Source: an uncultured Bacteroidota bacterium
Lineage (GTDB): Bacteria > Bacteroidota > Bacteroidia > 2-12-FULL-35-15
Assembly (NCBI GenBank): GCA_903870175.1
Contig: CAIQBY010000166.1
Span: 1,395 to 65,394 of the forward strand
DNA length: 64,000 nucleotides
Reading direction: 5' to 3'
Under the pieces are notes generated by a model. That model was given only the letters and a program-made list of their open reading frames with translations. It was not told the DNA's origin and did not search any database. Position numbers and translations under genes: made by a program. Of the stretch, positions 11,071-63,932 are shown one piece after another; the stretch's first letter is position 1; the number at the start of each line of letters is the position of its first letter.

Positions 11071-11649
11071 ATGAAATTTGTATTCGCTACCAGAAATAAA
11101 CACAAAGTGGCTGAAATCCAGTTACTCATTCCAAATCCAATTCGTGTTTTAAGTTTACATGATGTACATTGTATGGAAGATATTCCTGAGACAACTCCAA
11201 CGATTGAAGGCAATGCATCGCAAAAAGCTTTTTATGTTTACGAAAAATATCATCATAATTGTTTTGCTGATGATACCGGTTTGGAGATTGAAGCATTGAG
11301 TGGAAATCCCGGTGTGAGGTCGGCGAGATATGCAGGTGAGGATATGAATGAAGAAAATAATATAAGAAAAGTGCTGAATGAAATGGACGGAATTGCCCAC
11401 CGGAAGGCGCGATTTAAAACTGTGATTTCACTTGTTATTGATGGCAGTGAAATGCAGTTTGATGGATTGATGCATGGTTCTATTCTGCATGAAAAACGCG
11501 GTTCGAATGGTTTTGGGTACGACCCGATATTTATACCTGATGGTTATTCCCGTACGTTTGCTGAAATGGAATTAAGCGAAAAAAACAAAATATCTCATCG
11601 GGCAATGGCAGTTAATAAACTTGTTGAATACTTGCAAAAACTTGCCTGA
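11071..11649 (+). CDS. rdgB: Non-canonical purine NTP pyrophosphatase (RdgB/HAM1, ITPase)
   Basis: 192 aa. FATRNKHKVAEI N-terminus and FGYDPIF..SHRAMAV C-terminal motifs of the Ham1 family. Confidence 0.9.
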   Translation: MKFVFATRNKHKVAEIQLLIPNPIRVLSLHDVHCMEDIPETTPTIEGNASQKAFYVYEKYHHNCFADDTGLEIEALSGNPGVRSARYAGEDMNEENNIRKVLNEMDGIAHRKARFKTVISLVIDGSEMQFDGLMHGSILHEKRGSNGFGYDPIFIPDGYSRTFAEMELSEKNKISHRAMAVNKLVEYLQKLA

Positions 11650-11730: not shown

Positions 11731-14433
11731 ATGAAAATAGGAATAATATTCGGAGGGTTCTCCAAGGAGCGTGAAATATCATTTGCAGGCGGTAGAACAG
11801 TGTATGATAATCTCAATAAATCATTGTTTGAGGCAGTTCCGATTTTTGTGGACAGTTTCGGCAATTTTGTTTTGCTTAACTGGGGATACGTTTATAAAGG
11901 CAGTATTCGCGACTTTTATCCGCCTGCTGAATTTATTCCTAATAAGAAAGGCGACTTCCAGATATATGCTGAGCAGATAGGTGATTTATCCTCAGCCGAA
12001 CAATTAAAACTCATTAATAAAATCGGGAAAAAGATTGAGCCAAATGAGTTGAAGAATCATTTCGATTTCGCTTTTTTATGTCTGCATGGCCCGTATGGAG
12101 AGGATGGCAGGATACAGGGATTGTTTGAATATTTAAATATTCCTTATTCCGGTTCGGGGATTTTACCATCTTCCATCGGCATTGATAAATCGGTGCAAAA
12201 GAGGCTGATGGTGAATGCAGGATTTAATAGTCCGAAGTATATTACTATTGACAGAGAAGAATTTATCAGTGGAAATTGTAAAGAACCAATTCGAAAAGCA
12301 AAGGAGGAAATTGGTTTCCCGATGGTGGTGAAACCCGCTAATCAAGGGTCGTCTATTGGTGTTACTATTTTGCACGACAATGATGAATATAACATTGCAT
12401 TGATGGGAGCAATCGGAAAAGCTTTGTTTACCGAGTGGATAGATGCGAATGACTGGAAAAATTTATCCTCTGAAGACAAGACAAGTTTAATACGATTAAT
12501 GGCTGATATTCGTGAAGGTATAGGAATGCCTCTCGTAGTTTGGACTTCGACATATCCTGAAAAGAAAACAATTTGTCATCCTGCAGATTTAATTGAGTAT
12601 CTGGATTCTCTTTTTGAAAATGAAAAAGAAGGAGCAGTGCTCGAAGCACTTGATGGAGAAAGCAAAGTGCTGGTGGAAGGATTTATTGAAGGCAAAGAAT
12701 TCTCATGTATTGTGGCGCAGGTTGAAAATAGAAAAGCAATAGCGTTACCACCTACAGAGATAAGGAAGGGGAAAGAATTATTTGATTACAGGAGTAAATA
12801 TTTACCGGGATTATCAAGAAAGATTACACCGATTGATTTACCTAATGAGCAGATACAGGCTATCCGGAAGGAATGCGAGCGATTGTTTTATGAACTGAGC
12901 TTTGATGTGTATGCGCGTATTGATGGTTTTATTTCGAAGGAAGGAAAGATATTTTTGAATGATCCGAATACAACTTCCGGTATGATGCCGAGTTCTTTTT
13001 TCTTTCATCAGGCGGCTGAGATTGGGTTGAATCCTTCACAGTTTTTAACTTATATTATCCGTCAGTCTTTGTCGCAACGAATACTTGCCAGTAAAAACAA
13101 TGGCTTGTATGATGCGCTGATGGCGGATTTGGATAAGGCGATAACAAAAGATAAAACTTCATCTACAAAGAAAATAAAAGTGGCTGTGATACTTGGCGGC
13201 TATTCTTCGGAGCGACATATTTCTGTAGATAGCGGCAGAAATATTTATGAGAAACTTGCTTCTTCGGCTAAGTACGAGCCTATTCCGGTGTTTCTGACAG
13301 GCAATGCGGACGAACATATTATGTATCAGATTCCGATTAATATTTTGCTGAAAGATAATGCAGATGATATTAAAGATAAGATTGAACATTATAAAGTGCA
13401 CGAACTGGTAAAGGAAATTATTGGTGAATGTGCTGCCATTACAGGCAAATATGGCGCTGAGGATAATCTGGTGAAGCCAAAACGAATTACTTATACTGAC
13501 CTGGCGAAGATGGTAGATGCTGTATTCATTGCGTTACACGGTCGTCCGGGTGAAGATGGTGCGGTGCAGGCAAATCTGGAGAAGGTTGGATTGCCTTATA
13601 ACGGCTCGGGTGTGGCGAGTTCGCAGATTACGATTGACAAGTATAAAACGAATGAGATTTTAAAACAAAATGGTTTTCTGGTTGCCGAGCATCTTCTTAT
13701 TTCGGAAGAAGAATGGTTGAATAATAAAATTGAGGTGCTGGAAAATATAAAGAATAAAATTCATTTTCCTTTTATTGCAAAGCCTGTGGATGATGGCTGT
13801 TCGTCGGCTGTAAAGAAAATAAAAACGGTGGAAGAACTGGAAGCTTTTGCTTCTTTGATTTTCAGGAAGGATGAAGCATTAATAACTGATGCTGCGAATG
13901 TGCTGCATATAAAGGATAAGGAGGAGTTTCCTATGAAAAAATGTTTGTTGGTAGAGGAATTAATAAGCAAACGGGATGCAACTCATTTTCTGGAAATAAC
14001 AGGCGGAATGCTTACTAAATATAATGCTAAAGGAGAAGTGGAGTATGAAGTATTTGAAGCTTCGGAAGCATTATCGGAAGGAGAAGTATTATCGCTGGAA
14101 GAAAAATTTCTGGCAGGACAAGGGCAGAACATAACGCCGGCGCGTTATTCGGCTGATGTTACGGTGAGACAATTGATATCCGACAAGGTGAAAAAAACAT
14201 TTGGCGAAGCCGCAAAACTGCTTAATATAAACGGTTATACAAGGATTGATGCGTTTGTGCGCATATATGATTTGAGTAAAATAGAAGTTATTTTTATTGA
14301 AGTAAATTCGTTGCCGGGGATGACGCCTGCTACCTGCATCTTTCATCAGACGGCGATACAAGGTTATAAACCGTATGACTTTATTGACAGGATTCTTGAG
14401 TTTGGGTTTGAGAGGAAGAAACGAAATAGCTGA
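11731..14433 (+). CDS. Tandem (didomain) D-alanine--D-alanine ligase-like ATP-grasp protein
   Basis: 900 aa. Two complete Ddl-like modules: aa 1-~450 (MKIGIIFGGFSKEREISFAGG..LHGPYGEDGRIQG..KPANQGSSIGV) and aa ~480-900 (KVAVILGGYSSERHISVDSG..LHGRPGEDGAVQ..KPVDDGCSSAV..EVNSLPGMTPATCIF). The first module carries a long insertion. Confidence 0.8.
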   Translation: MKIGIIFGGFSKEREISFAGGRTVYDNLNKSLFEAVPIFVDSFGNFVLLNWGYVYKGSIRDFYPPAEFIPNKKGDFQIYAEQIGDLSSAEQLKLINKIGKKIEPNELKNHFDFAFLCLHGPYGEDGRIQGLFEYLNIPYSGSGILPSSIGIDKSVQKRLMVNAGFNSPKYITIDREEFISGNCKEPIRKAKEEIGFPMVVKPANQGSSIGVTILHDNDEYNIALMGAIGKALFTEWIDANDWKNLSSEDKTSLIRLMADIREGIGMPLVVWTSTYPEKKTICHPADLIEYLDSLFENEKEGAVLEALDGESKVLVEGFIEGKEFSCIVAQVENRKAIALPPTEIRKGKELFDYRSKYLPGLSRKITPIDLPNEQIQAIRKECERLFYELSFDVYARIDGFISKEGKIFLNDPNTTSGMMPSSFFFHQAAEIGLNPSQFLTYIIRQSLSQRILASKNNGLYDALMADLDKAITKDKTSSTKKIKVAVILGGYSSERHISVDSGRNIYEKLASSAKYEPIPVFLTGNADEHIMYQIPINILLKDNADDIKDKIEHYKVHELVKEIIGECAAITGKYGAEDNLVKPKRITYTDLAKMVDAVFIALHGRPGEDGAVQANLEKVGLPYNGSGVASSQITIDKYKTNEILKQNGFLVAEHLLISEEEWLNNKIEVLENIKNKIHFPFIAKPVDDGCSSAVKKIKTVEELEAFASLIFRKDEALITDAANVLHIKDKEEFPMKKCLLVEELISKRDATHFLEITGGMLTKYNAKGEVEYEVFEASEALSEGEVLSLEEKFLAGQGQNITPARYSADVTVRQLISDKVKKTFGEAAKLLNINGYTRIDAFVRIYDLSKIEVIFIEVNSLPGMTPATCIFHQTAIQGYKPYDFIDRILEFGFERKKRNS

Positions 14434-16256: not shown

Positions 16257-16814
16257 ATGTCTAAAAAGAAAATAGGATTTGTTTCACTTTACGAAACAGA
16301 AGTAAAAGACAGTTATGTGGGAACTGTACTGATTACTGACCACTACGGAATACCTCTGGAATTTAAATGTACTCATTCGGTAAAAGCAACTGCGATACAA
16401 AAAGCACTTTATGGTGAACGGCTGGAACCGTACATTGGTATTGAACTTTGCGCTATACCACTTTTAAAATCGATAACAAATACGCCTGATTTTATTTTTG
16501 TGAATGTTCCTTACCTGATTGCAATCCGTAAAAAGATTGATGTGCCCACAATTCTTATTAACAGGGCATCGAAAGAGGAAGTAACGGGAGAAATAATGGA
16601 AAACACAAAAGAAGGAAAAATACTGGTAGTGAATGAATATGGTACTTACGAGCCAGTAGAACTTGAATATCACCCTGATTATTTGAAAAAAGATACTACA
16701 AATTCACTGGAAGATATTAAATCAGTGTTCACTAATTTTGACTTGTACGAGCCGTTTGAAAGGATGAAAAAATCGGTGGAAATACTAGGAAAAAGTGATA
16801 GTAAATTCAAATAA
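16257..16814 (+). CDS. Hypothetical protein, first gene of a three-gene operon with SNF2-nuclease
   Basis: 185 aa with no recognisable motif. Its stop lies 2 bp before the start of the SNF2 gene (translational coupling). Confidence 0.5.
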   Translation: MSKKKIGFVSLYETEVKDSYVGTVLITDHYGIPLEFKCTHSVKATAIQKALYGERLEPYIGIELCAIPLLKSITNTPDFIFVNVPYLIAIRKKIDVPTILINRASKEEVTGEIMENTKEGKILVVNEYGTYEPVELEYHPDYLKKDTTNSLEDIKSVFTNFDLYEPFERMKKSVEILGKSDSKFK

Positions 16815-16816
16815 AA

Positions 16817-19360
16817 ATGAAGTCGGATAAACTTTCGTTTTTCCAAAAGACGAAATTAAATATTGCCAAATCTGTAGCGCCTGTTAAAGAAAAAATTACT
16901 GTAACTTTTAATGAAATAGATTTTTTTTTAGAGCCTCCCTCCTATCGTTCGAGTAAAGATTTTTTACTTTCGAATGTTACATTAAGCCAGGATTATTGCT
17001 ACTCGCCGGAAAATATTTCCATAACAAGTATTTCTGTTGTAGTTGACGCAGAACTTGAAGAGCCGAAAAGCAAATTAATAAAAGTTGGTTTTGATTCAAT
17101 ATTGATTCATGATTTGAGCAGTGTAAATGAGTTAACAGACTTGTATCCGGAGATTGAAAATTTCGTGATGAAATATAAGAAGCCGGCAATAAGAGGGAAA
17201 ATATATTCAAGGGAAGTTCCAAAAGAATTTGTGGCGAAAGTATATAAGCAACGAAATATAATAGAGAAAACCGAAACAGAGGAAATTGAAATACAAGAAA
17301 TAGAGGAGATTGAGGAAATAATAGAAGAGAAACCTGTGATTGAACAGCAATATAGAGATAAAAATAAATTTGATGTGTTTGATGTTTTCGATTTAATATT
17401 TCCTGCATTACAGCCTCCAATGGGGAAAACTTTTGATAATCCAATTGTGTTTCCTCGCCCATTATTAGCGTTTCAGCCGGAAGGAATTGAATTTTTGCTG
17501 GATAATCCTTCTGCATTATTGGGAGATGAAATGGGTCTGGGCAAAACGATTCAGGCGATTGTAGCATTGAAGGTTTTATTCGCTACAGGAAAAATAACTA
17601 CCTGTTGTATTGTATGTCCGAAAGCATTACTTACCAATTGGTATAATGAATTATGCCGATGGGCTCCGGAATTAAAAGCATTAAAACTGGAAGGCGGGCC
17701 TGCAAACCGTTATCATCTTTGGCATACAGGAGCACATATATATATATGCGTTTATGAATCGTTGCAAAAAGATTTGGAAAGAACCATTGAAATAAAAGGG
17801 TTGAAAGTGGATTCGTACGGTCATCATTTTGTATGTATAAATCCGGGATGTGACTGGGAGCTGGATATTCCTTTCGAGTTGCATTATACTACCATGGAAT
17901 GTCCGAAGTGTCATTATGAATTTTTCTATCCGTTAAAAGATGACCGGGCGCGAACGCATTTTGACGTGCTTATTTTTGATGAAATTCAGAAGACTAAAAA
18001 TCCAAAAACAAAAACAACAAAAGCATTAAGAACGCTGTATGCAAGATATAAATGGGCATTGAGCGGCACTCCGATGGAAAACAAACTGAAAGATTTGGTT
18101 ACTGTCTGCGAAACATTGGAAGAAGAAATGTTTAAGGATATGGATAAACGGAATGTTCAGGAAGTGATAAAAAGATACAGGCCGAAGTTTATCAGGAGAA
18201 AAAAAGATGATGTATTAAAAGATTTGGCACCTATACAACAAAAGTTTGAGTGGCTGGAACTGTCACCAAGTCAGCGAAGAAAATATGACCACGCTGAAGC
18301 GACCGGAATACTTGATTTGGAAGGAAAAAATGATGTGACGGTTCATCATATATTTGCATTGATAACAAAACTAAAACAGCTTTGTAATTTAGACCCTGAG
18401 ACACAGGAAAGTTCCAAACTTGAATATCTGAAAGAAAAACTGGAAGAGCTTACTTCGCAAGGTGATAAAGCGTTAATTTTTTCTCAGTTTCCGAAGAAAA
18501 CATTAGAACCATTGCTGCCACATTTGAAAGAATTTCATCCGTTATATTATCATGGGCAACTTAATTTGAATCAACGAGAATCAATGGTACGGACATTTCA
18601 GGATGCTAACAATACAGAAAATAAAATAATGCTAATTTCGTTAAAGGCAGGAAATTCGGGCATTACATTGACACGCGCGAATTATGTTTTTCATTTTGAT
18701 TTGTGGTGGAACCCTGCAGTATCTTCACAAGCAGCAGGAAGGGCACATAGGATTGGTCAGGAGAAAACAGTTTTTGAAACAATGCTTTTGGCTGAAGATA
18801 CTATAGAGAGAAGAATATTTGATATTCTGGAAACAAAGAAAAGTCTGTTTAATATTATTGTAGATGAATTGAGTGAAGAAGTAAATCTTGACAAACTGAT
18901 GTCGGAAGATGAAATTTTTGGGTTGTTCGGTTTGAAGAAGCGCCGAGCACCTGCAATTGCCGCTGATGTTGAAATAAGGAAAGATTTTCATAATTTTGAT
19001 GAAAATGAATTCGAGAAATTCATTTCGGATTTATTTACTCAGATGGGATACCATTTGAATCATCATAAAAAAAGTTATGATGGCGGAGTTTATATGTATG
19101 CGAAAATAATTAAACCAACAGGAATAGCAGAAGTTATTATTCAATCAATGAGAGTGGATAATGCGAATGCAGTGGTAACAGAAAATAATGTCAAGAAATT
19201 ACATGCTTTATTTTATGCCAATAAAAAGATTGCAAAAGCATATCTTGTTACCAATGGAAAATTTGAGGTGGAAGCAATTGAATTTGCAAAAAACAATTCG
19301 ATTGAATTAATAGATGGCATACAATTAAACGAATTTATAAAAAAACATTACTCGAAATAA
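16817..19360 (+). CDS. SNF2-family helicase with internal zinc ribbon and C-terminal Mrr-type (PD-(D/E)xK) restriction endonuclease-like domain
   Basis: 847 aa. SNF2 motif I (LLGDEMGLGKTIQAIV), motif II (DEIQKTKN), and a helicase-C block (LKAGNSGITLTRANYVFHFDLWWNPAVSSQAAGRAHRIGQ). A Cys4 ribbon (CINPGCDWE..CPKCH) is inserted between motifs I and II. C-terminal ~150 aa resemble Mrr_cat (YDGGVYMYAKII.., EVIIQSMRVD). N-terminal ~200 aa are unknown, with an acidic EEIE repeat. Confidence 0.85.
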   Translation: MKSDKLSFFQKTKLNIAKSVAPVKEKITVTFNEIDFFLEPPSYRSSKDFLLSNVTLSQDYCYSPENISITSISVVVDAELEEPKSKLIKVGFDSILIHDLSSVNELTDLYPEIENFVMKYKKPAIRGKIYSREVPKEFVAKVYKQRNIIEKTETEEIEIQEIEEIEEIIEEKPVIEQQYRDKNKFDVFDVFDLIFPALQPPMGKTFDNPIVFPRPLLAFQPEGIEFLLDNPSALLGDEMGLGKTIQAIVALKVLFATGKITTCCIVCPKALLTNWYNELCRWAPELKALKLEGGPANRYHLWHTGAHIYICVYESLQKDLERTIEIKGLKVDSYGHHFVCINPGCDWELDIPFELHYTTMECPKCHYEFFYPLKDDRARTHFDVLIFDEIQKTKNPKTKTTKALRTLYARYKWALSGTPMENKLKDLVTVCETLEEEMFKDMDKRNVQEVIKRYRPKFIRRKKDDVLKDLAPIQQKFEWLELSPSQRRKYDHAEATGILDLEGKNDVTVHHIFALITKLKQLCNLDPETQESSKLEYLKEKLEELTSQGDKALIFSQFPKKTLEPLLPHLKEFHPLYYHGQLNLNQRESMVRTFQDANNTENKIMLISLKAGNSGITLTRANYVFHFDLWWNPAVSSQAAGRAHRIGQEKTVFETMLLAEDTIERRIFDILETKKSLFNIIVDELSEEVNLDKLMSEDEIFGLFGLKKRRAPAIAADVEIRKDFHNFDENEFEKFISDLFTQMGYHLNHHKKSYDGGVYMYAKIIKPTGIAEVIIQSMRVDNANAVVTENNVKKLHALFYANKKIAKAYLVTNGKFEVEAIEFAKNNSIELIDGIQLNEFIKKHYSK

Positions 19361-37015: not shown

Positions 37016-39160
37016 ATGGAAATAGAAAAATTTCAGTACGACAACAAAATTGTAAAACAATTTGCTTATGCCACCATACTTTGGGGTTTGGTAGGAATGT
37101 TAGTAGGATTATGGGTTTCGCTCGAACTTATCTTCCCGTCATTTAACATTATTCCTATTACTGCTTTCGGGCGGTTACGACCATTGCATACCAATGCAGT
37201 AATTTTTGCCTTTGTTGGTAATGGTATGTTTATGGGAATTTATTATTCGTTGCAACGCTTGTGTAAAGCGCGTATGTTCAGTGATAAATTAAGTGCTATT
37301 CACTTTTGGGGATGGCAATTGATTATTGTTTCGGCAGCGTTGACACTTCCTTTCGGTATCACTACCGGTAAAGAATATGCCGAGCTTGAATGGCCGATAG
37401 ATATTGCTATCACTCTTATCTGGGTGGTATTTGCATGGAACTTTTTCGGAACAATAATTAAAAGAAGAGAGCGCCATTTATATGTTGCTATCTGGTTTTA
37501 TATTGCAACTATTGTTACAGTAGCAGTACTTCACATCGTTAACTCGATGGAAATGCCTGTATCGTTTTTGAAAAGTTATTCGATGTACGCCGGAGTTCAG
37601 GATGCGCTTGTGCAATGGTGGTACGGCCATAATGCAGTTGCATTTTTCCTTACCACTCCTTATTTAGGATTGATGTATTATTTTATTCCAAAGGTTGCCG
37701 AACGTCCGGTTTATTCGTATCGGTTATCAATTATCCACTTCTGGGCATTGATATTCCTGTATATCTGGGCTGGTCCTCACCACTTGTTATATACTGCATT
37801 GCCTGACTGGGCACAATCGCTGGGAGTCGTTTTCTCGATAATGCTTATTGCTCCATCATGGGGAGGTATGATAAACGGCTTATTGACTTTGCGCGGTGCT
37901 TGGGATAAAGTTCGTGAATCGGTAGTATTGAAATTTATGGTGGTAGCTGTTACTGCTTACGGTATGGCTACATTCGAAGGTCCAATGCTTGCCATTAAAA
38001 AAGTAAATTCAATTGCTCACTTTACTGATTGGGTAATTGCTCACGTTCACATTGGTGCATTAGGCTGGAATGGTTTCTTAACATTCGGTGTATTGTATTG
38101 GTTGATCCCGAAAATATTCCAGACAAATTTATGGTCTAATAAACTTGCTAACTGGCATTTCTGGTTAGGTTCGTTAGGTATTTTATTTTACGCAATCCCA
38201 ATGTATTGGGCAGGTTTCACACAGTACTTAATGTGGCAGGAATTTACAGCTGCAGGTTTCCTGAGATACCCTAACTTCCTTGAAACAGTAATTCAATTGC
38301 GCCCGATGTACATTATGCGTTCTATGGGAGGAGCTATGTATATCATCGGATTTGTGATGATGGCTTATAACTTGATTAAAACAATTAAAGGAGGTGTATT
38401 GCTTGCAAATGAAGATGCAGAAGCACCTGCTTTGCAAAAAGGATATACTAAACATGCAACTGACCATTGGCATAGAGTGATTGAGCGTAAACCAATTCAG
38501 TTTATGATATTATCATTAGTGGTAATTCTGGTAGGAGGAATGGTAGAAATGGTTCCTACCTTCCTTATCAAATCAAACATTCCTACTATATCAAGTGTAA
38601 AACCATATTCACCGCTTGAATTGCAGGGAAGAGATATTTACATCCGTGAAGGCTGTTATGTATGTCACTCGCAAATGGTACGTCCTTTACGTTTCGAAAC
38701 AGAAAGATATGGAGAGTATTCTAAAGCAGGAGAATTTGTGTACGACCATCCATTCCAGTGGGGAAGTAAACGTAACGGACCTGATTTGGCTCGTGTAGGA
38801 GGAAAATATCCAAACTCATGGCATTATAATCACATGATGGATCCTAGGTCGATGTCGCCGGGCTCTATTATGCCTACTTATCCATTCCTGCTTGACAAGG
38901 AAATAGATACAGCAAGTACACCTGCCAAGATAAGAGCAATGATTAAACTTGGAGTGCCATATCCTGAAGGTTATGATAAAATAGCCAACAGAGATTTGAT
39001 GATTCAGGCACAAACTATTGCTGATAATTTGAAAGTAGATAAGATAGAAACAGTAAGCGACAAAGAGATAATCGCTTTGATTTCGTATTTGCAAAAATTA
39101 GGCAGAGACTTAAAAATATATCATTTAATTAACGACAAACAACCAAGTACTAATAAATAA
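37016..39160 (+). CDS. ccoNO: cbb3-type cytochrome c oxidase subunits I and II, fused (CcoNO)
   Basis: 714 aa. Haem-copper oxidase subunit I helices with conserved His. C-terminal CcoO-like monohaem c domain (CYVCHSQ). Confidence 0.95.
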   Translation: MEIEKFQYDNKIVKQFAYATILWGLVGMLVGLWVSLELIFPSFNIIPITAFGRLRPLHTNAVIFAFVGNGMFMGIYYSLQRLCKARMFSDKLSAIHFWGWQLIIVSAALTLPFGITTGKEYAELEWPIDIAITLIWVVFAWNFFGTIIKRRERHLYVAIWFYIATIVTVAVLHIVNSMEMPVSFLKSYSMYAGVQDALVQWWYGHNAVAFFLTTPYLGLMYYFIPKVAERPVYSYRLSIIHFWALIFLYIWAGPHHLLYTALPDWAQSLGVVFSIMLIAPSWGGMINGLLTLRGAWDKVRESVVLKFMVVAVTAYGMATFEGPMLAIKKVNSIAHFTDWVIAHVHIGALGWNGFLTFGVLYWLIPKIFQTNLWSNKLANWHFWLGSLGILFYAIPMYWAGFTQYLMWQEFTAAGFLRYPNFLETVIQLRPMYIMRSMGGAMYIIGFVMMAYNLIKTIKGGVLLANEDAEAPALQKGYTKHATDHWHRVIERKPIQFMILSLVVILVGGMVEMVPTFLIKSNIPTISSVKPYSPLELQGRDIYIREGCYVCHSQMVRPLRFETERYGEYSKAGEFVYDHPFQWGSKRNGPDLARVGGKYPNSWHYNHMMDPRSMSPGSIMPTYPFLLDKEIDTASTPAKIRAMIKLGVPYPEGYDKIANRDLMIQAQTIADNLKVDKIETVSDKEIIALISYLQKLGRDLKIYHLINDKQPSTNK

Positions 39161-52058: not shown

Positions 52059-53147
52059 TTATTCCTCTTCCAGAGAATTACTCGCAGAATAACCTCTCCA
52101 TTTTTTAATTACTGAAAGCATATCATCCGGCAATTCAGAATCAAAATAAAGTTCATTTCCGGTAATAGGATGAATAAAGCCCAATGACTTGGCATGCAAA
52201 GCCTGGCGTGGCAATAAATCAAAACAATTATCTACAAATTGTTTGTATTTGGCAAAAGTAGTTCCTTTCAAAATCCGGTCGCCGCCATAGGTATTATCAT
52301 TAAACAATGAGTGCCCGATATGCTGCATGTGCGCCCTTATCTGGTGTGTACGACCTGTTTCCAATTTACATTCTATTAAGGTAACATACCCGAAACGCTC
52401 TAAAACCTTATAATGTGTAACGGCATGTTTCCCGAATTCGCTGTCAGGAGGAAACACATCCATCTTTTTCCTGTCCTTCAAATGCCTGCCGATATTGCCT
52501 GTCACCGTTCCTTCCTCCTCTTTAAAATCACCCCAAACCAAAGCAACATACTTTCTGTCCATGTTTCTGTCAAAAAAATCTTTTGCCAATCGAGTCATTG
52601 CAATTTCTGTTTTTGCAACAACCATTATTCCGGTTGTATCTTTATCCAATCGATGCACTAATCCAGGACGCATAACAGACGGCGAATGCTTGCTGTCCGA
52701 AGACTCAGAATAACTAGATGTAGGGGTCGGCAAATTTTGAAAATGATAAACGAGTGCATTGACCAAAGTGCCTTTATAATTGCCGTATCCGGGATGTACC
52801 ACAATTCCGGCATCTTTATTTATGATAATTAAATCATCATCCTCATACACAATTTTTATAGGAATGTTTTCCGGAATAAGTTCTATTTCGCGCGGTGGAT
52901 GGGCGAATACAACTGTGATTACATCGTAGGGCTTAACTTTATAATTAGATTTTACAGGCTTATCATTTACCAGCACATTTCCGTTTTCAACCGAATGCTG
53001 AACCCTGTTTCTTACTGCATTTTCAATATGATTAGTAAGATATTTATCAATACGAATAAGCCCTTGCCCTTTATCAACAACTATTCTATGATGCTCGAAT
53101 AATTCCTTATCTTCCTGTTCGTCCAGAACATCTTCTTCTTCATTCAT
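52059..53147 (-). CDS. rluD: RluA-family 23S rRNA pseudouridine synthase (RluD-like) with S4 domain
   Basis: 362 aa. S4-like N-terminus and a catalytic HRLDKDTTG motif. Confidence 0.9.
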   Translation of the reverse strand: MNEEEDVLDEQEDKELFEHHRIVVDKGQGLIRIDKYLTNHIENAVRNRVQHSVENGNVLVNDKPVKSNYKVKPYDVITVVFAHPPREIELIPENIPIKIVYEDDDLIIINKDAGIVVHPGYGNYKGTLVNALVYHFQNLPTPTSSYSESSDSKHSPSVMRPGLVHRLDKDTTGIMVVAKTEIAMTRLAKDFFDRNMDRKYVALVWGDFKEEEGTVTGNIGRHLKDRKKMDVFPPDSEFGKHAVTHYKVLERFGYVTLIECKLETGRTHQIRAHMQHIGHSLFNDNTYGGDRILKGTTFAKYKQFVDNCFDLLPRQALHAKSLGFIHPITGNELYFDSELPDDMLSVIKKWRGYSASNSLEEE

Positions 53148-53165
53148 AAAATAATCAGTAAATAT

Positions 53166-55208
53166 TTATTTGATTTTGATGAACCTGTTTGTCGAAATTG
53201 TTGTTTCATCTTTTATGGTGATGAAATATATCCCTTCGGAAAGGTTTGATATATCAATACTTTCAACAGCATTTATTCTGTTTTCTGAAATTAAACTGCC
53301 ATAAATATCAGTAATCGAATATGTGATTTTTGCTGATTGATAAGAAGAATTTATTTTAATAAATAATTTATCGTTGGCCGGATTTGGATAAACGGAAATA
53401 TTTTTATCCGCAACTGGAATATTTTTAATCCCTGTAAATTCAGCAGCAGTACCAAACACAGCACGCATCATCATTGAACCTGGATATGGTGATGTATACC
53501 AGGTACCTGTTGTATTGTAAAATACTTTATTCATATTATTTGTCCTTTTATCCACTCCAACATTTAAAAACTGATTGGTGTTTTGTAAAAAACCAACGTA
53601 AAAAGTAGATGCATGAAGATAAAGCGGAAGATAAATCGGATTTGTTAAATAATATCGAATAAAATGGTCAGGACCATAATTGATTGTATCATATTCCGGC
53701 GTAAGTTGAAGATTAATATTATCAGAATAAATTTCGGCACCCGGCTGACCTCCAACATCATTCCAAACTTTCATTACGATGGTATATAAAGTTGCATCAT
53801 TCCAAAGAGGATTAAAATAAATATCTATACAGCGCAAAGTATCAGGTATTGTAGAAGTAAATTGTTGGGCTAGTTCGCCAAGCACCATTGAGGTTCCACC
53901 AAGTGCAAAGGCACTTTCCGCCGAGCCGTCGTCGTAGGCATAATAATTTAGAAACTTTTGTTTTGTTCTTACAGTATCATTTAGATGGTTTTTATCAGGA
54001 TTGGTGTTAAGCACTGCTTCAAAATTATATGTAATAGAATCATTTAATACAGGTATTACTGGCAGCGGACTTGCATTGTAAGTATAATATCCGGAAGAAG
54101 TATAAGGGTTAACATTATCAGAAGAATTTGGGGAACAAAATACTTGTATATGAATACTATCAACACAAAAATCAAAATTCACGTTTTTGGGAATGTTATA
54201 ATTATTTCGTAACAAAACATGAATGGAGTCTTGCATAAAAGATGTTTTATAATGCTTCCAAGGCATGGCTGTATATGTTTTCAATAATGAGGGAGGGTCA
54301 TAAACAAAAGCAACATCTTCAAATAAAGTATCATACATATTCCTATTTTTAGCCAGATAAACATTATCAATACTCCACTGGTCACCATTGCCGCTGAGCG
54401 TAGCCCAATTTCTAAATCGAAATTGAAAACCTGCTTTCAGAAACGTAGTATCAGTTACAGGAAGTATAACATATTTCCAACTGCTGTCATTTGCAGGAAG
54501 CGGATATCCGAAATGCGCCCAGCGTTCCTGCCATATCACCGAATCGTAAGGTTTAACGTAATCGACTATCTGGCCAATTGCATCAGATATTGAAACTATA
54601 GTATCTGTAAATGTAACTGAATCGTAAGAAAATAATGTGTCTTTTACAAATGTAGTATCATGAATAGTTTTATAAGCAGTTGTTTTTTTGCCAAACTCAA
54701 GTATTAACGAATCCGCTGATTCAGGCGCATTCCCACGGCCCTGCGGCTGATAATAAAAACTTAAATATATTGAATCTCCTGCAACTTTGTTTTTCAAATT
54801 TATTCTTTTCGAAGTGAGTACATCAGCCTTACCTGTAGAATATTGACTTGCTAAAAAGTCGTAAGGATAACCGTGCTCATTTACTCCATCAAAAGTTGCA
54901 ACACCAATGGTAGGCGGTGCAATAGGGTAATCTCGATTTATAAAAACATAATTATCCAGCCATAATGCAGTATCAGGAAATGGACCTCTCTTTGAAAAAT
55001 CATCTAAAAAGGGAGAAGAATCAATGTTCAGAGTGTCATAAACTGAAGGAGCAACATAAACCGATTTTTGATTTTTGATTTCATTCCATTTTTGTAACAA
55101 CACATGATTTGTACTCAATGGCACTTCAATCAGTCCCTGAGAGCACAGAATGTTGGATAGCAACATACAAATTGAAGCTAAAAATATATTATTGATCGTA
55201 ATTTTCAT
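53166..55208 (-). CDS. Secreted hypothetical protein with T9SS C-terminal sorting domain
   Basis: ORF 53166..55238. The likely start is the internal Met with a signal peptide (MKITINNIFLASICMLLSNILCSQG). C-terminal CTD (ISVYPNPANDKLFIKI...GIYFITIKDE). Confidence 0.7.
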   Translation of the reverse strand: MKITINNIFLASICMLLSNILCSQGLIEVPLSTNHVLLQKWNEIKNQKSVYVAPSVYDTLNIDSSPFLDDFSKRGPFPDTALWLDNYVFINRDYPIAPPTIGVATFDGVNEHGYPYDFLASQYSTGKADVLTSKRINLKNKVAGDSIYLSFYYQPQGRGNAPESADSLILEFGKKTTAYKTIHDTTFVKDTLFSYDSVTFTDTIVSISDAIGQIVDYVKPYDSVIWQERWAHFGYPLPANDSSWKYVILPVTDTTFLKAGFQFRFRNWATLSGNGDQWSIDNVYLAKNRNMYDTLFEDVAFVYDPPSLLKTYTAMPWKHYKTSFMQDSIHVLLRNNYNIPKNVNFDFCVDSIHIQVFCSPNSSDNVNPYTSSGYYTYNASPLPVIPVLNDSITYNFEAVLNTNPDKNHLNDTVRTKQKFLNYYAYDDGSAESAFALGGTSMVLGELAQQFTSTIPDTLRCIDIYFNPLWNDATLYTIVMKVWNDVGGQPGAEIYSDNINLQLTPEYDTINYGPDHFIRYYLTNPIYLPLYLHASTFYVGFLQNTNQFLNVGVDKRTNNMNKVFYNTTGTWYTSPYPGSMMMRAVFGTAAEFTGIKNIPVADKNISVYPNPANDKLFIKINSSYQSAKITYSITDIYGSLISENRINAVESIDISNLSEGIYFITIKDETTISTNRFIKIK

Positions 55209-56013
55209 CATCTTTTGTATTTGTTGATGTTGTATCAACGCTAATTACAGGTATTTTATTGTGGTCGGTCGTGAAAAATAAATCGACAGTAGAACCCATT
55301 TTTAAACTTTTATCTCTTCCGCACTTTGGTAATTGTCTGTAAACCTTTGACGTTGCAGAGTCTTTAGGTTCGTCAAACGATATTGCTCCTGCACTTAAAG
55401 AAGCATCCGTTAATTTTTCCAACGCTTCTTTTTTTGACAATCCATATAAACAAGGTACGCCCACCTCTTCATCACTCAATCCTTTTCCCACAACCAAATT
55501 AATAACAGTTCCTTTAGCAATGCTTTCTCCCTGTGTAATTTTTTTCCCTTTTACAAGTTGATCCAGCACACAATTAGCGCATTGATCGGGGACAAATTTT
55601 ACTTTTCCAAGTTTCAAACCATAAGTTGTCAGCATTGCCTGAGCTTGTCTTAACGAACGGTCGATTAATTTTGGCATCACCACAGAAGGCGGCATTAATG
55701 AGTTAACATATAAATAAATTGTCCGTCCGTCTTTCACTTCTGCCTTTGGTTCCGGCTCTTGTTTTATTACTGTCCCCTTTGGTGATTTAGTATCGTAAAT
55801 TGAATCAACCACTAAATATTTTACACTTTTATCAGAAATGAAATTATCCAAATCACCTAATTTAACACCGGTAAAATCAGGTACTTTAATAGTTTTTCCA
55901 TGACTTGTGTATGAACTTAGCCAGAAAGTAATTATCAGGCAAACCATTGCAATAAACACCAAATATAAAATAAGATGTTTTAAAAATGCTTTGCTTTTAA
56001 TAAAATTAAACAT
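55189..56013 (-). CDS. PASTA-domain membrane protein
   Basis: 274 aa. N-terminal TM followed by three PASTA-like repeats. PASTA–rluD linkage is conserved in Bacteroidota. Confidence 0.7.
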   Translation of the reverse strand: MFNFIKSKAFLKHLILYLVFIAMVCLIITFWLSSYTSHGKTIKVPDFTGVKLGDLDNFISDKSVKYLVVDSIYDTKSPKGTVIKQEPEPKAEVKDGRTIYLYVNSLMPPSVVMPKLIDRSLRQAQAMLTTYGLKLGKVKFVPDQCANCVLDQLVKGKKITQGESIAKGTVINLVVGKGLSDEEVGVPCLYGLSKKEALEKLTDASLSAGAISFDEPKDSATSKVYRQLPKCGRDKSLKMGSTVDLFFTTDHNKIPVISVDTTSTNTKDDENYDQ

Positions 56014-62079: not shown

Positions 62080-62206
62080 TGTAATGGATTTTAAGTGAAT
62101 TATTAAATTGTTTTTATAGTGAGATGCATCCCCCTTTAAAATTCCATAAACAATTTTGAAATATTTTTTTTGGCGACCAAAGTTCCTGCCATCCATCAAG
62201 TTCGTT

Positions 62207-62310
62207 CCCGCTTTCCCCTCCAATCTTTTTATTTTTGAAGAAAAAATAAAAAGGATTTCCGGTACAATCGGGCGCAGTTGCAGCAGTATCGTCCTCCTCC
62301 AGTTTTCCAT
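62207..62310. ncRNA. Conserved ~105-nt intergenic element, copy 2. Contains hairpin CTTTTTATTTTT/AAAAATAAAAAG. Lies in 5' leader of A2M gene on minus strand
   Basis: See copy 1 at 45117..45220. Flanks are conserved (CCCGCTTTCCCCTCCAATCT ... GGATTTCCGGTAyAATCGGGCGCAGTTGCA ... ATCGTyCTCCT..AGTTTTCCAT). Confidence 0.45.
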
Positions 62311-62391
62311 CAAAGCACAAAAAAAGCCTCGTATTTCTACGAAGCTTTCTTCTTCAAACTTTTAAACTTTAAACTTTCAAACTTTGAACTA

Positions 62392-63536: not shown

Positions 63537-63632
63537 TACGACTCCGTAGGAGTCAAATATTAATAACCCCCAGTGAAACTGGGGGTCAAAGATTCCCTCC
63601 CAATCTCACGACCCCAGCGGGGTCGAATAATT
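63537..63632. terminator. Cluster of three consecutive GC-rich hairpins (GACTCC..GGAGTC ; CCCCCAG..CTGGGGG ; CGACCCC..GGGGTCG)
   Basis: Three different 6-7 bp GC stems with 3-5 nt loops in a ~95-bp stretch downstream of the minus-strand gene 63636..63932. Confidence 0.45.
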
Positions 63633-63635
63633 AAT

Positions 63636-63932
63636 CTATCTTATCTGCCGCTGGATTTTTTCTTTAGATAAAATAACTTCATCCATAAGTACGAAAATAA
63701 AATTAACATTTTCATCTCCTGTATCTCTTAAAGCATCCCGTCCAAAATAAAAATACTCTCCATCAGGCATAAGGTCTGACCACTCTTTCCAAACACCAGA
63801 AGTCGCAATATTTACTATCATTAACGACAATCTTTCCTCCATTTCTTCCAATTGTTCAACCGCTTCCTTTAGCATATTTTGATAATCAGAAGATAAATTA
63901 TATAGTTCAGATATCTTGATTATTTCACCCAT
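63636..63932 (-). CDS. Hypothetical protein
   Basis: 98 aa acidic ORF with no motifs. Confidence 0.4.
   Translation of the reverse strand: MGEIIKISELYNLSSDYQNMLKEAVEQLEEMEERLSLMIVNIATSGVWKEWSDLMPDGEYFYFGRDALRDTGDENVNFIFVLMDEVILSKEKIQRQIR

What the first reader, a model, noticed from the sequence alone, without database searches (positions are those of the whole stretch)
11731..14433. 900-aa protein made of two complete D-Ala–D-Ala ligase-like ATP-grasp modules in tandem
- **What the sequence shows:** both halves carry the Ddl N-terminal Rossmann motif (IIFGG.S.EREIS / VILGGYSSERHIS), the central (LHG..GEDG..QG) motif and the C-terminal ATP-grasp motifs (KP…GSS.GV, EVN..PGMT). The first module has a long insertion (~130 aa).
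- **Why it is unusual:** canonical Ddl is ~300-360 aa and acts as a homodimer. A covalently fused heterodimer-like Ddl-Ddl protein could have altered or dual substrate specificity (e.g. D-Ala-D-Ser or D-Ala-D-Lac in one module). Or one module could be a degenerate regulatory pseudo-enzyme.
- **Context:** no separate ddl is present in this window. In Bacteroidota ddl normally sits next to rluD/PASTA, a linkage that is interrupted here (53 kb away).
Basis: partly seen in the sequence, partly recalled or inferred. Interest (0 to 1): 0.55.

Follow-up and report, generated by a model that had tools for sequence, protein, structure and literature searches.

The report
Asymmetric tandem D-Ala–D-Ala ligase

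Summary
ORF 11731-14433 (+) is an intact 900-aa protein made of two complete Ddl modules (aa 1-450 and 481-900) joined by a helical linker. It is not an assembly artefact: the same single ORF occurs in at least 572 species genomes.

The modules share only about 26% identity. Both keep the ATP, Mg2+ and acyl-phosphate residues, but each has its own signature, constant or nearly so from Bacteroidota (~900 aa) to Patescibacteria/CPR (~790 aa):
- **Module 1:** Ser150/Tyr216/Ser281, with Glu270->Asp.
- **Module 2:** Cys150/Phe216/Thr281.

Phe at position 216 is the known dipeptide/depsipeptide switch.

In 34 of 80 relatives the gene is followed directly by a TM-PASTA gene, then rluD. In other lineages the PASTA protein is fused on, giving Ddl-Ddl-TM-PASTA. 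Cardinium, which makes peptidoglycan, has only a stand-alone module-2-type gene beside PASTA.

Best reading: this is the lineage's housekeeping ligase, an ancient asymmetric pseudo-dimer with two active sites, functionally coupled to a PASTA protein. Three things are untested: the product of module 2, whether a second ddl exists elsewhere in the genome, and the inter-module interface. I found no literature on this form. I rate it a new variant of a known kind.

The parts
11731..14433 (+). Tandem ddl gene: 900-aa Ddl-Ddl protein plus stop codon
   Evidence: Intact ORF. Pfam and NCBIfam Ddl hits in both halves. 100%-identical protein P0001 on 12 public contigs. Orthologues in at least 572 species genomes.
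11731..13080 (+). Module 1 (aa 1-450): complete Ddl module of the 'Tyr type'. It has E13, H119, E124, K153, K201, S207, S208, E316, E323, K356-Y357, R396, D398, D411 (in place of Glu270), N413, G417 and S422.
   Evidence: Alignment and hhalign to DdlB. All these residues are invariant in 53 orthologues and in the CPR homologues of alignment A1, and nearly invariant across distant representatives. Codons verified.
11854..12024 (+). Module 1 N-domain insertion (aa ~42-98) relative to DdlB
   Evidence: Modelled with pLDDT ~75-94. Module 2 has a comparable insertion at aa ~521-582.
12394..12648 (+). Module 1 central-domain insertion (aa ~222-306), a predicted alpha/beta sub-domain. It is absent from DdlB and from the compact CPR tandem proteins.
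   Evidence: CPR proteins match the query from aa ~311. AF2 secondary structure with pLDDT 82-94. It is one of the two least conserved parts of the protein, 0.42.
12766..12816 (+). Module 1 omega loop (aa 346-362) carrying K356-Y357 (DdlB K215-Y216)
   Evidence: Low pLDDT, as expected for a mobile lid.
13081..13170 (+). Inter-module linker (aa 451-480), predicted helical and poorly conserved
   Evidence: In frame with no stop. Helix 458-477 in the AF2 model. Conservation 0.35.
13171..14430 (+). Module 2 (aa 481-900): complete Ddl module of the 'Phe type'. It has E494, H603, E608, K637, K684, C690 (in place of Ser150), S691, A693, E742, E755, K792-F793 (Tyr216->Phe), R838, D840, E857, N859, G863, T868 (Ser281->Thr) and C869.
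   Evidence: The same signature is found in the stand-alone proteins of Cardinium and Amoebophilus.
13780..13809 (+). Module 2 phosphate-loop segment K684-P-V-D-D-G-C690-S-S-A693, aligned to DdlB K144...G149-S150-S151-V-G153
   Evidence: hhalign. Cys690 is invariant in 53 orthologues and in nearly all intact tandem representatives, including CPR.
14074..14124 (+). Module 2 omega loop (aa 782-798) carrying K792-F793. The DdlB aromatic residues Y210/Y212 are replaced by L787/L789.
   Evidence: Low pLDDT.
11071..11649 (+). rdgB/Ham1-family NTP pyrophosphatase, the conserved upstream neighbour
   Evidence: Pfam PF01725. Directly upstream of the tandem gene in 33 of 80 related loci.
55189..56013 (-). 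Single-pass membrane PASTA-domain protein (N-terminal TM helix, three PASTA repeats). It is the usual downstream partner of the tandem gene, relocated and inverted in this genome.
   Evidence: Pfam PF03793, three stretches. TM at aa ~7-30 with a basic N-terminus. Directly downstream of the tandem gene in 34 of 80 loci and on a 5.25-Mb contig. Fused to the tandem protein in other lineages.
53166..55238 (-). T9SS C-terminal-sorting-domain protein lying between PASTA and rluD, part of the relocated block
   Evidence: Pfam PF18962. The same position between PASTA and rluD is inferred from the ~2-kb gap in 19 loci. A T9SS-tail gene follows PASTA in L111.
52059..53147 (-). rluD-type pseudouridine synthase, the end of the relocated PASTA-X-rluD block
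   Evidence: Pfam PF00849 plus S4. Downstream of tandem ddl-PASTA in 19 of 80 loci.

Best explanation
The gene encodes this lineage's housekeeping D-alanyl-D-alanine-forming ligase in an ancient tandem form. Two long-diverged Ddl modules sit in one cytoplasmic chain and pack into a fixed pseudo-dimer. Each module has a full ATP-grasp active site: ATP plus Mg2+ phosphorylates the carboxylate of D-Ala(1), and a second D-configured substrate attacks the acyl-phosphate. The product is handed to MurF.

The two sites are not equivalent:
- **Module 1** has the classical D-Ala-D-Ala specificity residues (Ser150/Tyr216/Ser281), but an Asp in place of the Mg2+ ligand Glu270.
- **Module 2** has a constant Cys150/Phe216/Thr281 set. 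This breaks the Glu15-Ser150-Tyr216 hydrogen-bond triad. In characterised Ddls, that change leaves dipeptide synthesis intact while relaxing the second-substrate site, which permits D-lactate.

A module-2-type protein alone appears sufficient for peptidoglycan synthesis in Cardinium, so module 2 is a working ligase.

The enzyme is functionally coupled to a single-pass membrane protein with periplasmic PASTA repeats. I infer that this protein tethers or regulates the ligase at the inner membrane.

**Shown:** the architecture, residue conservation, distribution, synteny and fusions.
**Inferred:** catalytic activity of both modules, sole-Ddl status, the pseudo-dimer packing, and the PASTA coupling mechanism.
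For: **A real and conserved gene**
- Intact ORF.
- More than 120 protein clusters of ~900 aa at 74-100% identity.
- At least 572 species genomes.
- 705 representatives at E<=1e-30, including ~50 full-length tandem forms at 40-61% identity.

**Both modules look catalytic**
- E15, H63, E68, K97, K144, E180, E187, K215, R255, D257, N272 and G276 are invariant in both halves of 53 orthologues, and invariant or nearly so in distant representatives and CPR homologues.
- The two cores are about equally conserved, 0.78 against 0.75.
- Foldseek matches are all Ddl structures, with target TM-scores of 0.8-0.9.

**The asymmetry is ancient**
- S/Y/D/S in module 1 and C/F/E/T in module 2 are constant or nearly so from Bacteroidota to Patescibacteria at ~31% identity.
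- Module 1 sequences score best against other module 1 sequences, and module 2 against module 2.

**The Phe/Tyr switch is documented**
- DdlB Y216F was crystallised with ADP and the phosphorylated transition-state analogue (PDB 1iow).

**Housekeeping role**
- No other ddl-like gene in the window or in 977 kb of related loci.
- The tandem gene lies rdgB | ddl-ddl | PASTA | X | rluD in many relatives.
- The complete 887-kb Cardinium cEper1 genome has ftsH | module-2-type ddl | PASTA, with the same C/F/T signature.
- The Cardinium genome paper says the organism makes peptidoglycan. Its table lists murA-G, murF, mraY and PBPs but no ddl (PMC3486910).

**Fixed arrangement of the modules**
- AF2 mean pLDDT 83.7 and pTM 0.84 for the whole 900-aa chain. 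Only the two omega loops and aa 729-751 are uncertain.

**PASTA coupling**
- Adjacency in 34 of 80 loci.
- Ddl-Ddl-TM-PASTA fusions, whose TM motif 'FLKN' matches the N-terminal TM of the window's PASTA protein.
Against: - There is no biochemical data for any family member.
- I could not read whole genomes, so a canonical single-module ddl elsewhere in tandem-bearing genomes is not excluded.
It was tested only indirectly, through Cardinium.
- Module 1 has Asp for the Mg2+ ligand Glu270 and Ser for Pro275, which could lower or change its activity.
- The module 2 hinge segment containing E742 (DdlB E180) is modelled with pLDDT below 50. Its assignment rests on the conserved LLVEELI motif, not on structure.
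- pTM is only an indirect indicator of the inter-module interface. No coordinates or PAE were available.
- The PASTA linkage is absent in the window itself and in about half of the relatives. It is also absent in the three CPR loci inspected.
- Absence of ddl from the Cardinium table is an argument from silence.
Confidence: 0.6

Rival explanations
1. Division of labour by product. Module 1 makes D-Ala-D-Ala. Module 2 is a dedicated D-Ala-D-X ligase (D-lactate, D-serine or another D-substrate). The cell would then make two kinds of precursor termini, or switch between them.
For: - Module 2 has Phe at the Tyr216 position, Cys at Ser150, Thr at Ser281, and lacks Y210/Y212. All are constant or nearly so across two phyla.
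- Phe at this position defines the D-Ala-D-Lac-forming Ddls of lactic acid bacteria (PMC5996685).
- Such strict conservation of a non-canonical set suggests selection for a specific property, not drift.
Against: - Module 2 scores far below the NCBIfam cut-offs for every Van-type D-Ala-D-Lac or D-Ala-D-Ser ligase.
- From my recollection of Park, Lin and Walsh (1996), DdlB Y216F still makes D-Ala-D-Ala, so Phe alone does not prove depsipeptide synthesis.
- In Cardinium a module-2-type protein seems to be the only Ddl while MurF and PBPs are ordinary. That fits a D-Ala-D-Ala-competent enzyme at least as well.
- No D-lactate dehydrogenase or VanX-like gene was seen beside the gene.
Confidence: 0.2
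2. Accessory paralogue. Tandem-bearing genomes also have an ordinary single-module ddl elsewhere. The tandem protein would then be a specialised second ligase tied to the PASTA protein, for example for stress, recycling or envelope remodelling, and not the housekeeping enzyme.
For: - Whole genomes could not be inspected.
- Many bacteria carry two ddl paralogues (ddlA and ddlB in enterobacteria, established knowledge).
- Some Ddl-Ddl-TM-PASTA proteins have lost their catalytic residues, which implies another Ddl exists in those genomes.
Against: - No second ddl-like gene in the 64-kb window or in 977 kb of related loci.
- In many relatives the tandem gene sits directly upstream of PASTA and rluD, the position I recall for canonical ddl in Bacteroidota (untested here).
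- The gene was found in at least 572 species genomes at 59-86% identity among the 80 kept, a level of conservation typical of an essential gene.
- Cardinium retains a module-2-type gene as its only evident Ddl.
Confidence: 0.2
3. One module is a non-catalytic, regulatory or purely structural pseudo-enzyme that replaces the second subunit of the usual homodimer.
For: - Each module departs from the canonical pattern somewhere: module 1 has Glu270->Asp and Pro275->Ser, module 2 has Ser150->Cys and Tyr216->Phe.
- Each half alone scores below the curated NCBIfam Ddl cut-offs.
- Degenerate descendants exist among the PASTA-fused forms.
Against: - All ATP-, Mg2+- and acyl-phosphate-binding residues are invariant in both modules of 53 orthologues and nearly all intact tandem representatives in two phyla.
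- The substitutions are conservative (Asp for Glu, Cys for Ser, Phe for Tyr, Thr for Ser).
- Both cores evolve at about the same rate.
- True pseudo-enzyme relatives look very different, for example P0179 and P0202.
- A module-2-type protein functions alone in Cardinium.
Confidence: 0.1
4. Artefact: two adjacent ddl paralogues joined by an assembly or sequencing error.
For: None found.
Against: - The same uninterrupted ORF occurs in at least 572 independent species genomes, including a complete chromosome and multi-Mb contigs.
- It also occurs in a second phylum.
- The junction is in frame.
Confidence: 0.01

Closest known systems
Single-module D-alanine--D-alanine ligases (E. coli DdlB, PDB 2dln; DdlA-type, PDB 3i12; T. 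thermophilus Ddl, PDB 2yzg/6u1x)
   Same: Each module has the same three-domain ATP-grasp fold, with target TM-scores of 0.8-0.9. The ATP/Mg2+/catalytic residues are the same. Module 1 also has the same Ser150/Tyr216/Ser281 specificity residues.
   Different: The window protein is one 900-aa chain with two non-identical modules (26% identity) instead of a homodimer of ~300-360-aa subunits. Both modules carry large insertions. Module 1 has Asp for Glu270, and module 2 has Cys/Phe/Thr for Ser150/Tyr216/Ser281. No solved structure covers both modules; query TM-scores are at most 0.34.
Phe-type Ddl of vancomycin-resistant lactic acid bacteria (Leuconostoc LmDdl2, PDB 1ehi; Lactobacillus Ddl) and the DdlB Y216F mutant (PDB 1iow)
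   Same: Module 2 has Phe at the omega-loop position where Tyr gives dipeptide and Phe gives depsipeptide activity (PMC5996685).
   Different: The window gene comes from Gram-negative Bacteroidota or CPR, not Firmicutes. Module 2 additionally has Cys150 and Thr281 and lacks Y210/Y212. It is fused to a Tyr-type module. Its product is unknown.
MurC-Ddl fusion proteins of Chlamydiae (NCBIfam NF011171)
   Same: Ddl is part of a larger multi-module peptidoglycan-precursor enzyme. JGI even mislabels many tandem proteins 'UDP-N-acetylmuramate--alanine ligase'.
   Different: The partner here is a second Ddl module, not MurC. NF011171 scores 190 bits against a cut-off of 1015.
PASTA-domain signalling and synthesis proteins (PknB/PrkC/StkP-type Ser/Thr kinases; PBP2x)
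   Same: In the fused relatives the architecture is a cytoplasmic catalytic part, one TM helix, then extracytoplasmic PASTA repeats. This is the layout of PASTA kinases (established knowledge).
   Different: The cytoplasmic part is a metabolic ligase or its pseudo-enzyme descendant, not a kinase. In the window the PASTA protein is a separate gene about 40 kb away. No ligand or signalling role has been shown.
Carbamoyl-phosphate synthetase large subunit (two tandem ATP-grasp modules with different jobs)
   Same: It is a precedent for an internally duplicated ATP-grasp enzyme whose two modules have diverged to non-identical roles (established knowledge).
   Different: It belongs to a different ATP-grasp family, has different chemistry, and passes an intermediate through a tunnel. 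There is no sign of sequential chemistry here.

Membership tests
D-alanine--D-alanine ligase family (Pfam PF01820 + PF07478; EC 6.3.2.4) | N-terminal, central and C-terminal Ddl domains present (three-domain ATP-grasp fold), checked for each module | tested here: met
   Pfam N and C domains are found in both halves. The AF2 model has pLDDT 83.7. Foldseek hits are exclusively Ddl, with target TM-scores of 0.8-0.9.
D-alanine--D-alanine ligase family (Pfam PF01820 + PF07478; EC 6.3.2.4) | ATP/Mg2+/acyl-phosphate residues (DdlB K97, K144, E180, E187, K215, R255, D257, E270, N272) | tested here: met
   All are present and invariant in module 2. All are present in module 1 except Glu270, which is a conservative, invariant Asp411.
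D-alanine--D-alanine ligase family (Pfam PF01820 + PF07478; EC 6.3.2.4) | D-Ala site triad Glu15-Ser150-Tyr216 plus Ser281 | tested here: inconclusive
   Module 1 meets it (E13, S207, Y357, S422). Module 2 does not (E494, C690, F793, T868). The protein as a whole therefore has one canonical site and one non-canonical site.
D-alanine--D-alanine ligase family (Pfam PF01820 + PF07478; EC 6.3.2.4) | Score above the curated NCBIfam cut-off | tested here: inconclusive
   The full protein exceeds the subfamily cut-offs (TIGR01205 386 bits against 245.65; NF002527 312.6 against 310). Each half alone falls below them (232 and 161 against 245.65).
D-alanine--D-alanine ligase family (Pfam PF01820 + PF07478; EC 6.3.2.4) | ATP-dependent synthesis of D-Ala-D-Ala that feeds MurF | not testable with these tools
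   The evidence is indirect only: the gene's position upstream of PASTA and rluD in relatives, and the Cardinium case.
Van-type D-Ala-D-Lac ligases (VanA/B/D/F/M...) | Score above the NCBIfam exception/equivalog cut-offs (550-775 bits) | tested here: not met
   The best generic D_ala_D_lac score is 216 bits for the whole protein, 121 for module 1 and 102 for module 2, against a cut-off of 550.
Van-type D-Ala-D-Ser ligases (VanC/E/G/L/N) | Score above the NCBIfam cut-offs (495-775 bits) | tested here: not met
   VanG scores 275 bits for the whole protein against 495, and each half scores 162 or less.
Phe-type depsipeptide-forming Ddl (lactic acid bacteria type) | Phe at the omega-loop position equivalent to DdlB Tyr216 | tested here: met
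   Met for module 2 only: K792-F793 aligns to K215-Y216 and is invariant. Module 1 has Tyr.
Phe-type depsipeptide-forming Ddl (lactic acid bacteria type) | D-Ala-D-lactate as product; vancomycin-insensitive precursor termini | not testable with these tools
   This needs an enzyme assay or precursor mass spectrometry.
Pseudo-enzyme (catalytically dead ATP-grasp module) | Loss of ATP/Mg2+/catalytic residues in a module | tested here: not met
   Neither module of the window protein has lost them. Distant PASTA-fused relatives such as P0179, P0202 and P0275 have.
PASTA-coupled transmembrane proteins (cytoplasmic catalytic domain - TM - PASTA) | Catalytic part, TM helix and PASTA repeats in one polypeptide | tested here: not met
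   The window protein has no TM helix or PASTA domain. Its PASTA partner is a separate gene at 55189-56013. Relatives P0130, P0131 and P0133 and loci L087-L094 do have the single-chain form.

The most novel reading that the evidence does not exclude
The tandem ligase and the PASTA protein form a previously unrecognised control point. A periplasmic peptidoglycan- or muropeptide-sensing PASTA module is wired directly to the cytoplasmic enzyme that makes the stem-peptide terminus, rather than to a kinase or a PBP. Module 2 (Cys150/Phe216/Thr281) makes a non-canonical terminus such as D-Ala-D-Lac or another D-Ala-D-X. Many Bacteroidota and CPR bacteria would then build or switch between two kinds of precursor termini from a single polypeptide.
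Probability: 0.2. Interest if true: 0.85.

Novelty: new variant of a known kind. Interest (0 to 1): 0.6.

Why it matters
Ddl is an essential enzyme, an antibiotic target (D-cycloserine), and the determinant of glycopeptide susceptibility through its Tyr/Phe specificity switch.

This finding points to a large, apparently unstudied branch of the family, present in hundreds of Bacteroidota species and in Patescibacteria. In it the usual homodimer has been replaced by a fused pair of non-equivalent active sites, one Tyr-type and one Phe-type. That pair has been frozen since before the two phyla's versions diverged.

If both sites work, this is a natural experiment in dividing labour within one ATP-grasp enzyme. 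It could also mean non-canonical precursor termini in Gram-negative and CPR cell walls.

The recurrent adjacency and outright fusion to a TM-PASTA protein gives a concrete, testable hypothesis for the function of the orphan PASTA proteins of Bacteroidota. It would also be a route by which envelope status could control precursor supply.

There is an annotation gain as well. CPR copies are labelled 'hypothetical protein', the Cardinium cEper1 copy is labelled 'uncharacterized', and many JGI copies are mislabelled as MurC.

Tried and rejected
**Ideas rejected**
- Mis-assembly or frameshift, rejected.
- One half being degenerate, rejected.
- Van-type identity of either half, rejected on the NCBIfam scores.
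- 'Stand-alone module 1' representatives (P0190, P0204, P0226, P0230, P0232, P0233) as evidence for a split two-gene form. Their ends look truncated or frameshifted, so I did not use them.
- Intermediate-length hits of 460-650 aa as a new architecture. They are N-terminally truncated tandem proteins.
- Conserved CPR context as a functional clue. glmM-ytxH-vanW lies upstream in two Peregrinibacteria loci but not in a third, which is too thin to use.
- Stand-alone Ser150/Phe216 relatives (P0502, P0498) as a bridge to canonical Bacteroidota Ddl. Their contexts were uninformative.

**Searches that gave nothing useful**
- The AFDB50 fold search, meant to get named organisms, was unavailable on the machine.
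- Cluster look-ups returned almost no organism names.
- Literature searches for tandem or fused Ddl-Ddl, PASTA plus ddl in Bacteroidetes, and Pollutiaquabacter found nothing relevant.
- The reviews and papers on intracellular bacteria and Peregrinibacteria did not address Ddl copy number.

**What I could not do**
- No model coordinates or PAE were available, so I could not test directly whether the modules pack like the Ddl homodimer.

Full report
**Observation.** The ORF at 11731-14433 (+) is intact and encodes 900 aa. Pfam finds the Ddl N-terminal domain twice and the Ddl C-terminal domain in both halves. NCBIfam Ddl subfamily models hit aa 1-460 (TIGR01205, 232 bits) and aa 481-900 (161 bits) independently. 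Each half alone is below the curated cut-off of 245.65, while the whole protein is above it. The two halves align to each other over ~469 residues at 26% identity, E=2e-28. Profile-profile alignment to E. coli DdlB gives 100% and 99.9% probability. My DdlB reference sequence is identical to PDB 2dln/1iov. The junction at nt 13081-13170 is in frame. tblastn with DdlB and both halves finds no other ddl-like sequence in the window.
- 'EVN..PGMT' exists only in module 2. Module 1 reads LNDPNTTSGMM.
- The ~135 extra residues of module 1 are two insertions, aa ~42-98 and aa ~222-306. Module 2 has ~110 extra residues of its own.
- The rluD/PASTA block lies at window 52-56 kb, about 40 kb from the gene.

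**Not an artefact, and not rare.** The identical protein is on 12 public contigs. More than 120 clusters (at 90% identity) of 894-951 aa share 74-97% identity with it, nearly all labelled Bacteroidota or Bacteroidia MAGs. The 80 kept are 59-86% identical over the full length and include a complete chromosome, CP185379.1, of order Ca. Pollutiaquabacterales. An exhaustive HMMER search of 1.84 billion 50%-identity representatives found 705 at E<=1e-30, among them ~50 full-length tandem proteins at 40-61% identity. Truncated copies labelled Pontibacter, Cytophagales, Cyclobacteriaceae and Saprospiraceae are N-terminally cut tandem proteins. A compact form of ~790 aa at ~31-33% identity, lacking the large insertions, belongs to Patescibacteria, mostly Ca. 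Peregrinibacteria, where NCBI calls it 'hypothetical protein'.

**Anatomy of the two active sites.** I anchored on DdlB numbering and scored 53 orthologues, 87 distant representatives and a 40-sequence alignment spanning both phyla.
- *Shared by both modules:* Glu15, His63, Glu68, Lys97, Lys144, Glu180, Glu187, Lys215, Arg255, Asp257, Asn272 and Gly276. This is the whole ATP, Mg2+ and acyl-phosphate apparatus, as I recall it from the DdlB structure and the Shi and Walsh mutagenesis.
- *Module 1:* it also keeps Ser150, Ser151, Tyr216 and Ser281, but has Asp411 for Glu270 and Ser416 for Pro275.
- *Module 2:* it keeps Glu270 but has Cys690 for Ser150, Ala693 for Gly153, Phe793 for Tyr216, Leu/Ser/Leu for Tyr210/Asp211/Tyr212, Thr868 for Ser281 and Cys869 for Leu282.

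Each signature is invariant in the 53 orthologues and constant in nearly all intact tandem proteins across both phyla. The module cores are about equally conserved, 0.78 and 0.75, against 0.35 for the linker and 0.42 for the central insertion of module 1. By BLAST score, module 1 sequences group with module 1 and module 2 with module 2 across phyla. So the duplication and the asymmetry predate the Bacteroidota/CPR divergence of this gene, or the gene moved between them as a unit. One caveat: the module 2 hinge (aa 729-751, containing Glu742) has pLDDT below 50, and its assignment rests on the conserved LLVEELI motif.

[quoted passage not shown] DdlB Y216F is catalytically competent enough to trap the phosphorylated transition-state analogue (PDB 1iow, seen). 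From memory, it still makes D-Ala-D-Ala while gaining D-Ala-D-Lac activity. Cys for Ser150 together with Phe for Tyr216 removes the Glu15-Ser150-Tyr216 hydrogen-bond triad. Module 2 is therefore predicted to be an active ligase with a relaxed or altered second-substrate site, not a dead domain. Neither module resembles Van-type D-Ala-D-Lac or D-Ala-D-Ser ligases by NCBIfam.

**Structure.** AlphaFold2 on the 40-sequence alignment gave mean pLDDT 83.7 and pTM 0.84 for the whole chain. Low confidence is confined to the two omega loops (346-362 and 782-798) and aa 729-751. The linker is a helix at 458-477, and the module 1 insertion is a confident alpha/beta sub-domain. A pTM that high for a two-module chain implies a defined mutual arrangement, but I had no coordinates or PAE to compare it with the Ddl homodimer. 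Foldseek against the PDB returns only Ddl-family chains, each covering one module (target TM 0.8-0.9, query TM at most 0.34). No tandem Ddl has been solved.

**Context and the PASTA connection.** In the window the neighbours are yidC and rdgB upstream and a CBS-domain PLP enzyme downstream. In related genomes rdgB is directly upstream in 33 of 80 loci. A TM-PASTA gene follows on the same strand, ~40 nt downstream, in 34 of 80 loci, of which about 70 have enough flank to tell. rluD follows ~2 kb further in 19. A 5.25-Mb contig shows tandem ddl, then PASTA, then a T9SS-tail protein. The window has the same PASTA / T9SS-tail / rluD block intact, but inverted and about 40 kb away at 52059-56013. 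Another clade has an unrelated context.

More telling, 13 representatives and about 12 metagenomic loci encode Ddl-Ddl, one TM helix and PASTA repeats as a single protein of 1115-1285 aa. Their TM segment carries the same 'FLKN' motif as the N-terminal TM of the window's PASTA protein. This puts the ligase on the cytoplasmic face and the PASTA repeats outside, which is the layout of PASTA kinases. Three of these fusions keep both catalytic signatures (P0130, P0131, P0133). At least ten have lost them in both modules.

**Is it the housekeeping enzyme?** The evidence in favour:
- There is no second ddl-like gene in the window or in 977 kb of fetched loci.
- The gene occupies the PASTA/rluD neighbourhood.
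- Its conservation is strong and its distribution wide.
- In the Amoebophilaceae endosymbionts, complete Cardinium genomes encode a stand-alone protein of 420-440 aa with exactly the module 2 signature. In cEper1 it lies ftsH | ddl | PASTA. The cEper1 genome paper states that Cardinium can make peptidoglycan, and its curated table lists murA-G, murF, mraY and PBPs but no ddl (PMC3486910). The module-2-type protein was deposited there as 'uncharacterized'.

So a module-2-type ligase alone probably supplies MurF in that organism.

The evidence against or missing:
- I could not scan whole genomes, so a canonical ddl elsewhere is not excluded.
- The claim that single-module ddl normally sits beside PASTA/rluD in other Bacteroidota is recollection, not something tested here.

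**Verdict.** The best-supported reading (confidence ~0.6) is an ancient, asymmetric, two-active-site tandem Ddl that serves as the lineage's D-Ala-D-X dipeptide supplier and works with a membrane PASTA protein. The rivals are:
- A dedicated second product from module 2 (0.2).
- An accessory paralogue alongside a canonical ddl (0.2).
- One pseudo-enzyme module (0.1).
- An artefact (0.01).

I found no paper describing a Ddl-Ddl tandem or a ddl-PASTA link in Bacteroidota. The proteins exist in databases only under generic or wrong names. It is a new variant of a known enzyme kind: of moderate-to-good interest to cell-wall specialists, directly testable, and not categorically new.

Noticed in passing
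Relatives P0168, P0176, P0179, P0185, P0186, P0188, P0202, P0218, P0235, P0275; loci L086 8001-11606, L090 and L098 8001-11729: These Ddl-Ddl-TM-PASTA proteins (1115-1236 aa) have lost most catalytic residues in both ligase modules. They appear to be membrane-anchored pseudo-enzymes derived from the Bacteroidota tandem ligase. No intact ddl lies within +-8 kb of the ones fetched.
   Followed up: partly
L081 3373-6347 and L082 2169-5099 (Peregrinibacteria): In two CPR loci the compact tandem ddl is preceded, divergently, by a phosphoglucosamine-mutase-like gene, ytxH and a VanW-domain gene, with a PBP a few kb away. A third CPR locus (L083) lacks this arrangement.
   Followed up: partly
window 16257-19360 (+): A 185-aa ORF with no Pfam hit is followed, with a 2-nt gap, by an 847-aa SNF2-related helicase fused to an Mrr-type restriction-endonuclease domain. 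This looks like a possible defence or restriction module.
   Followed up: no
window 57571-62313 (-): A 1580-aa bacterial alpha-2-macroglobulin-like protein with MG2, A2M, TED and receptor-binding domains.
   Followed up: no
window ~63545-63640 (read on the - strand): Three short G+C-rich hairpins lie in a row in an A+T-rich intergenic region: gaccccgctggggtc, gacccccagtttcactgggggt and gactcctacggagtc. They could be terminators or a small repeated element.
   Followed up: no
window 53166-55238 and 55189-56013 (-): The T9SS-tail ORF as listed (TTG start) overlaps the end of the PASTA ORF by 50 nt, so its true start is probably further downstream. A T9SS-tail gene also follows PASTA in L111, and the ~2-kb PASTA-rluD gap in 19 loci suggests the same arrangement there.
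   Followed up: partly
window 37016-39160 (+): cbb3-type oxidase subunits CcoN and CcoO are encoded as one fused 714-aa protein (COX1 plus FixO domains).
   Followed up: no
P0268 (987 aa, representative search): A CPR-type compact tandem Ddl carries an additional N-terminal GNAT acetyltransferase domain.
   Followed up: no
Database annotations of the family: Annotation is inconsistent. JGI often labels the tandem protein 'UDP-N-acetylmuramate--alanine ligase'. NCBI labels the CPR copies 'hypothetical protein'. The Cardinium cEper1 copy is 'Putative uncharacterized protein'.
   Followed up: yes
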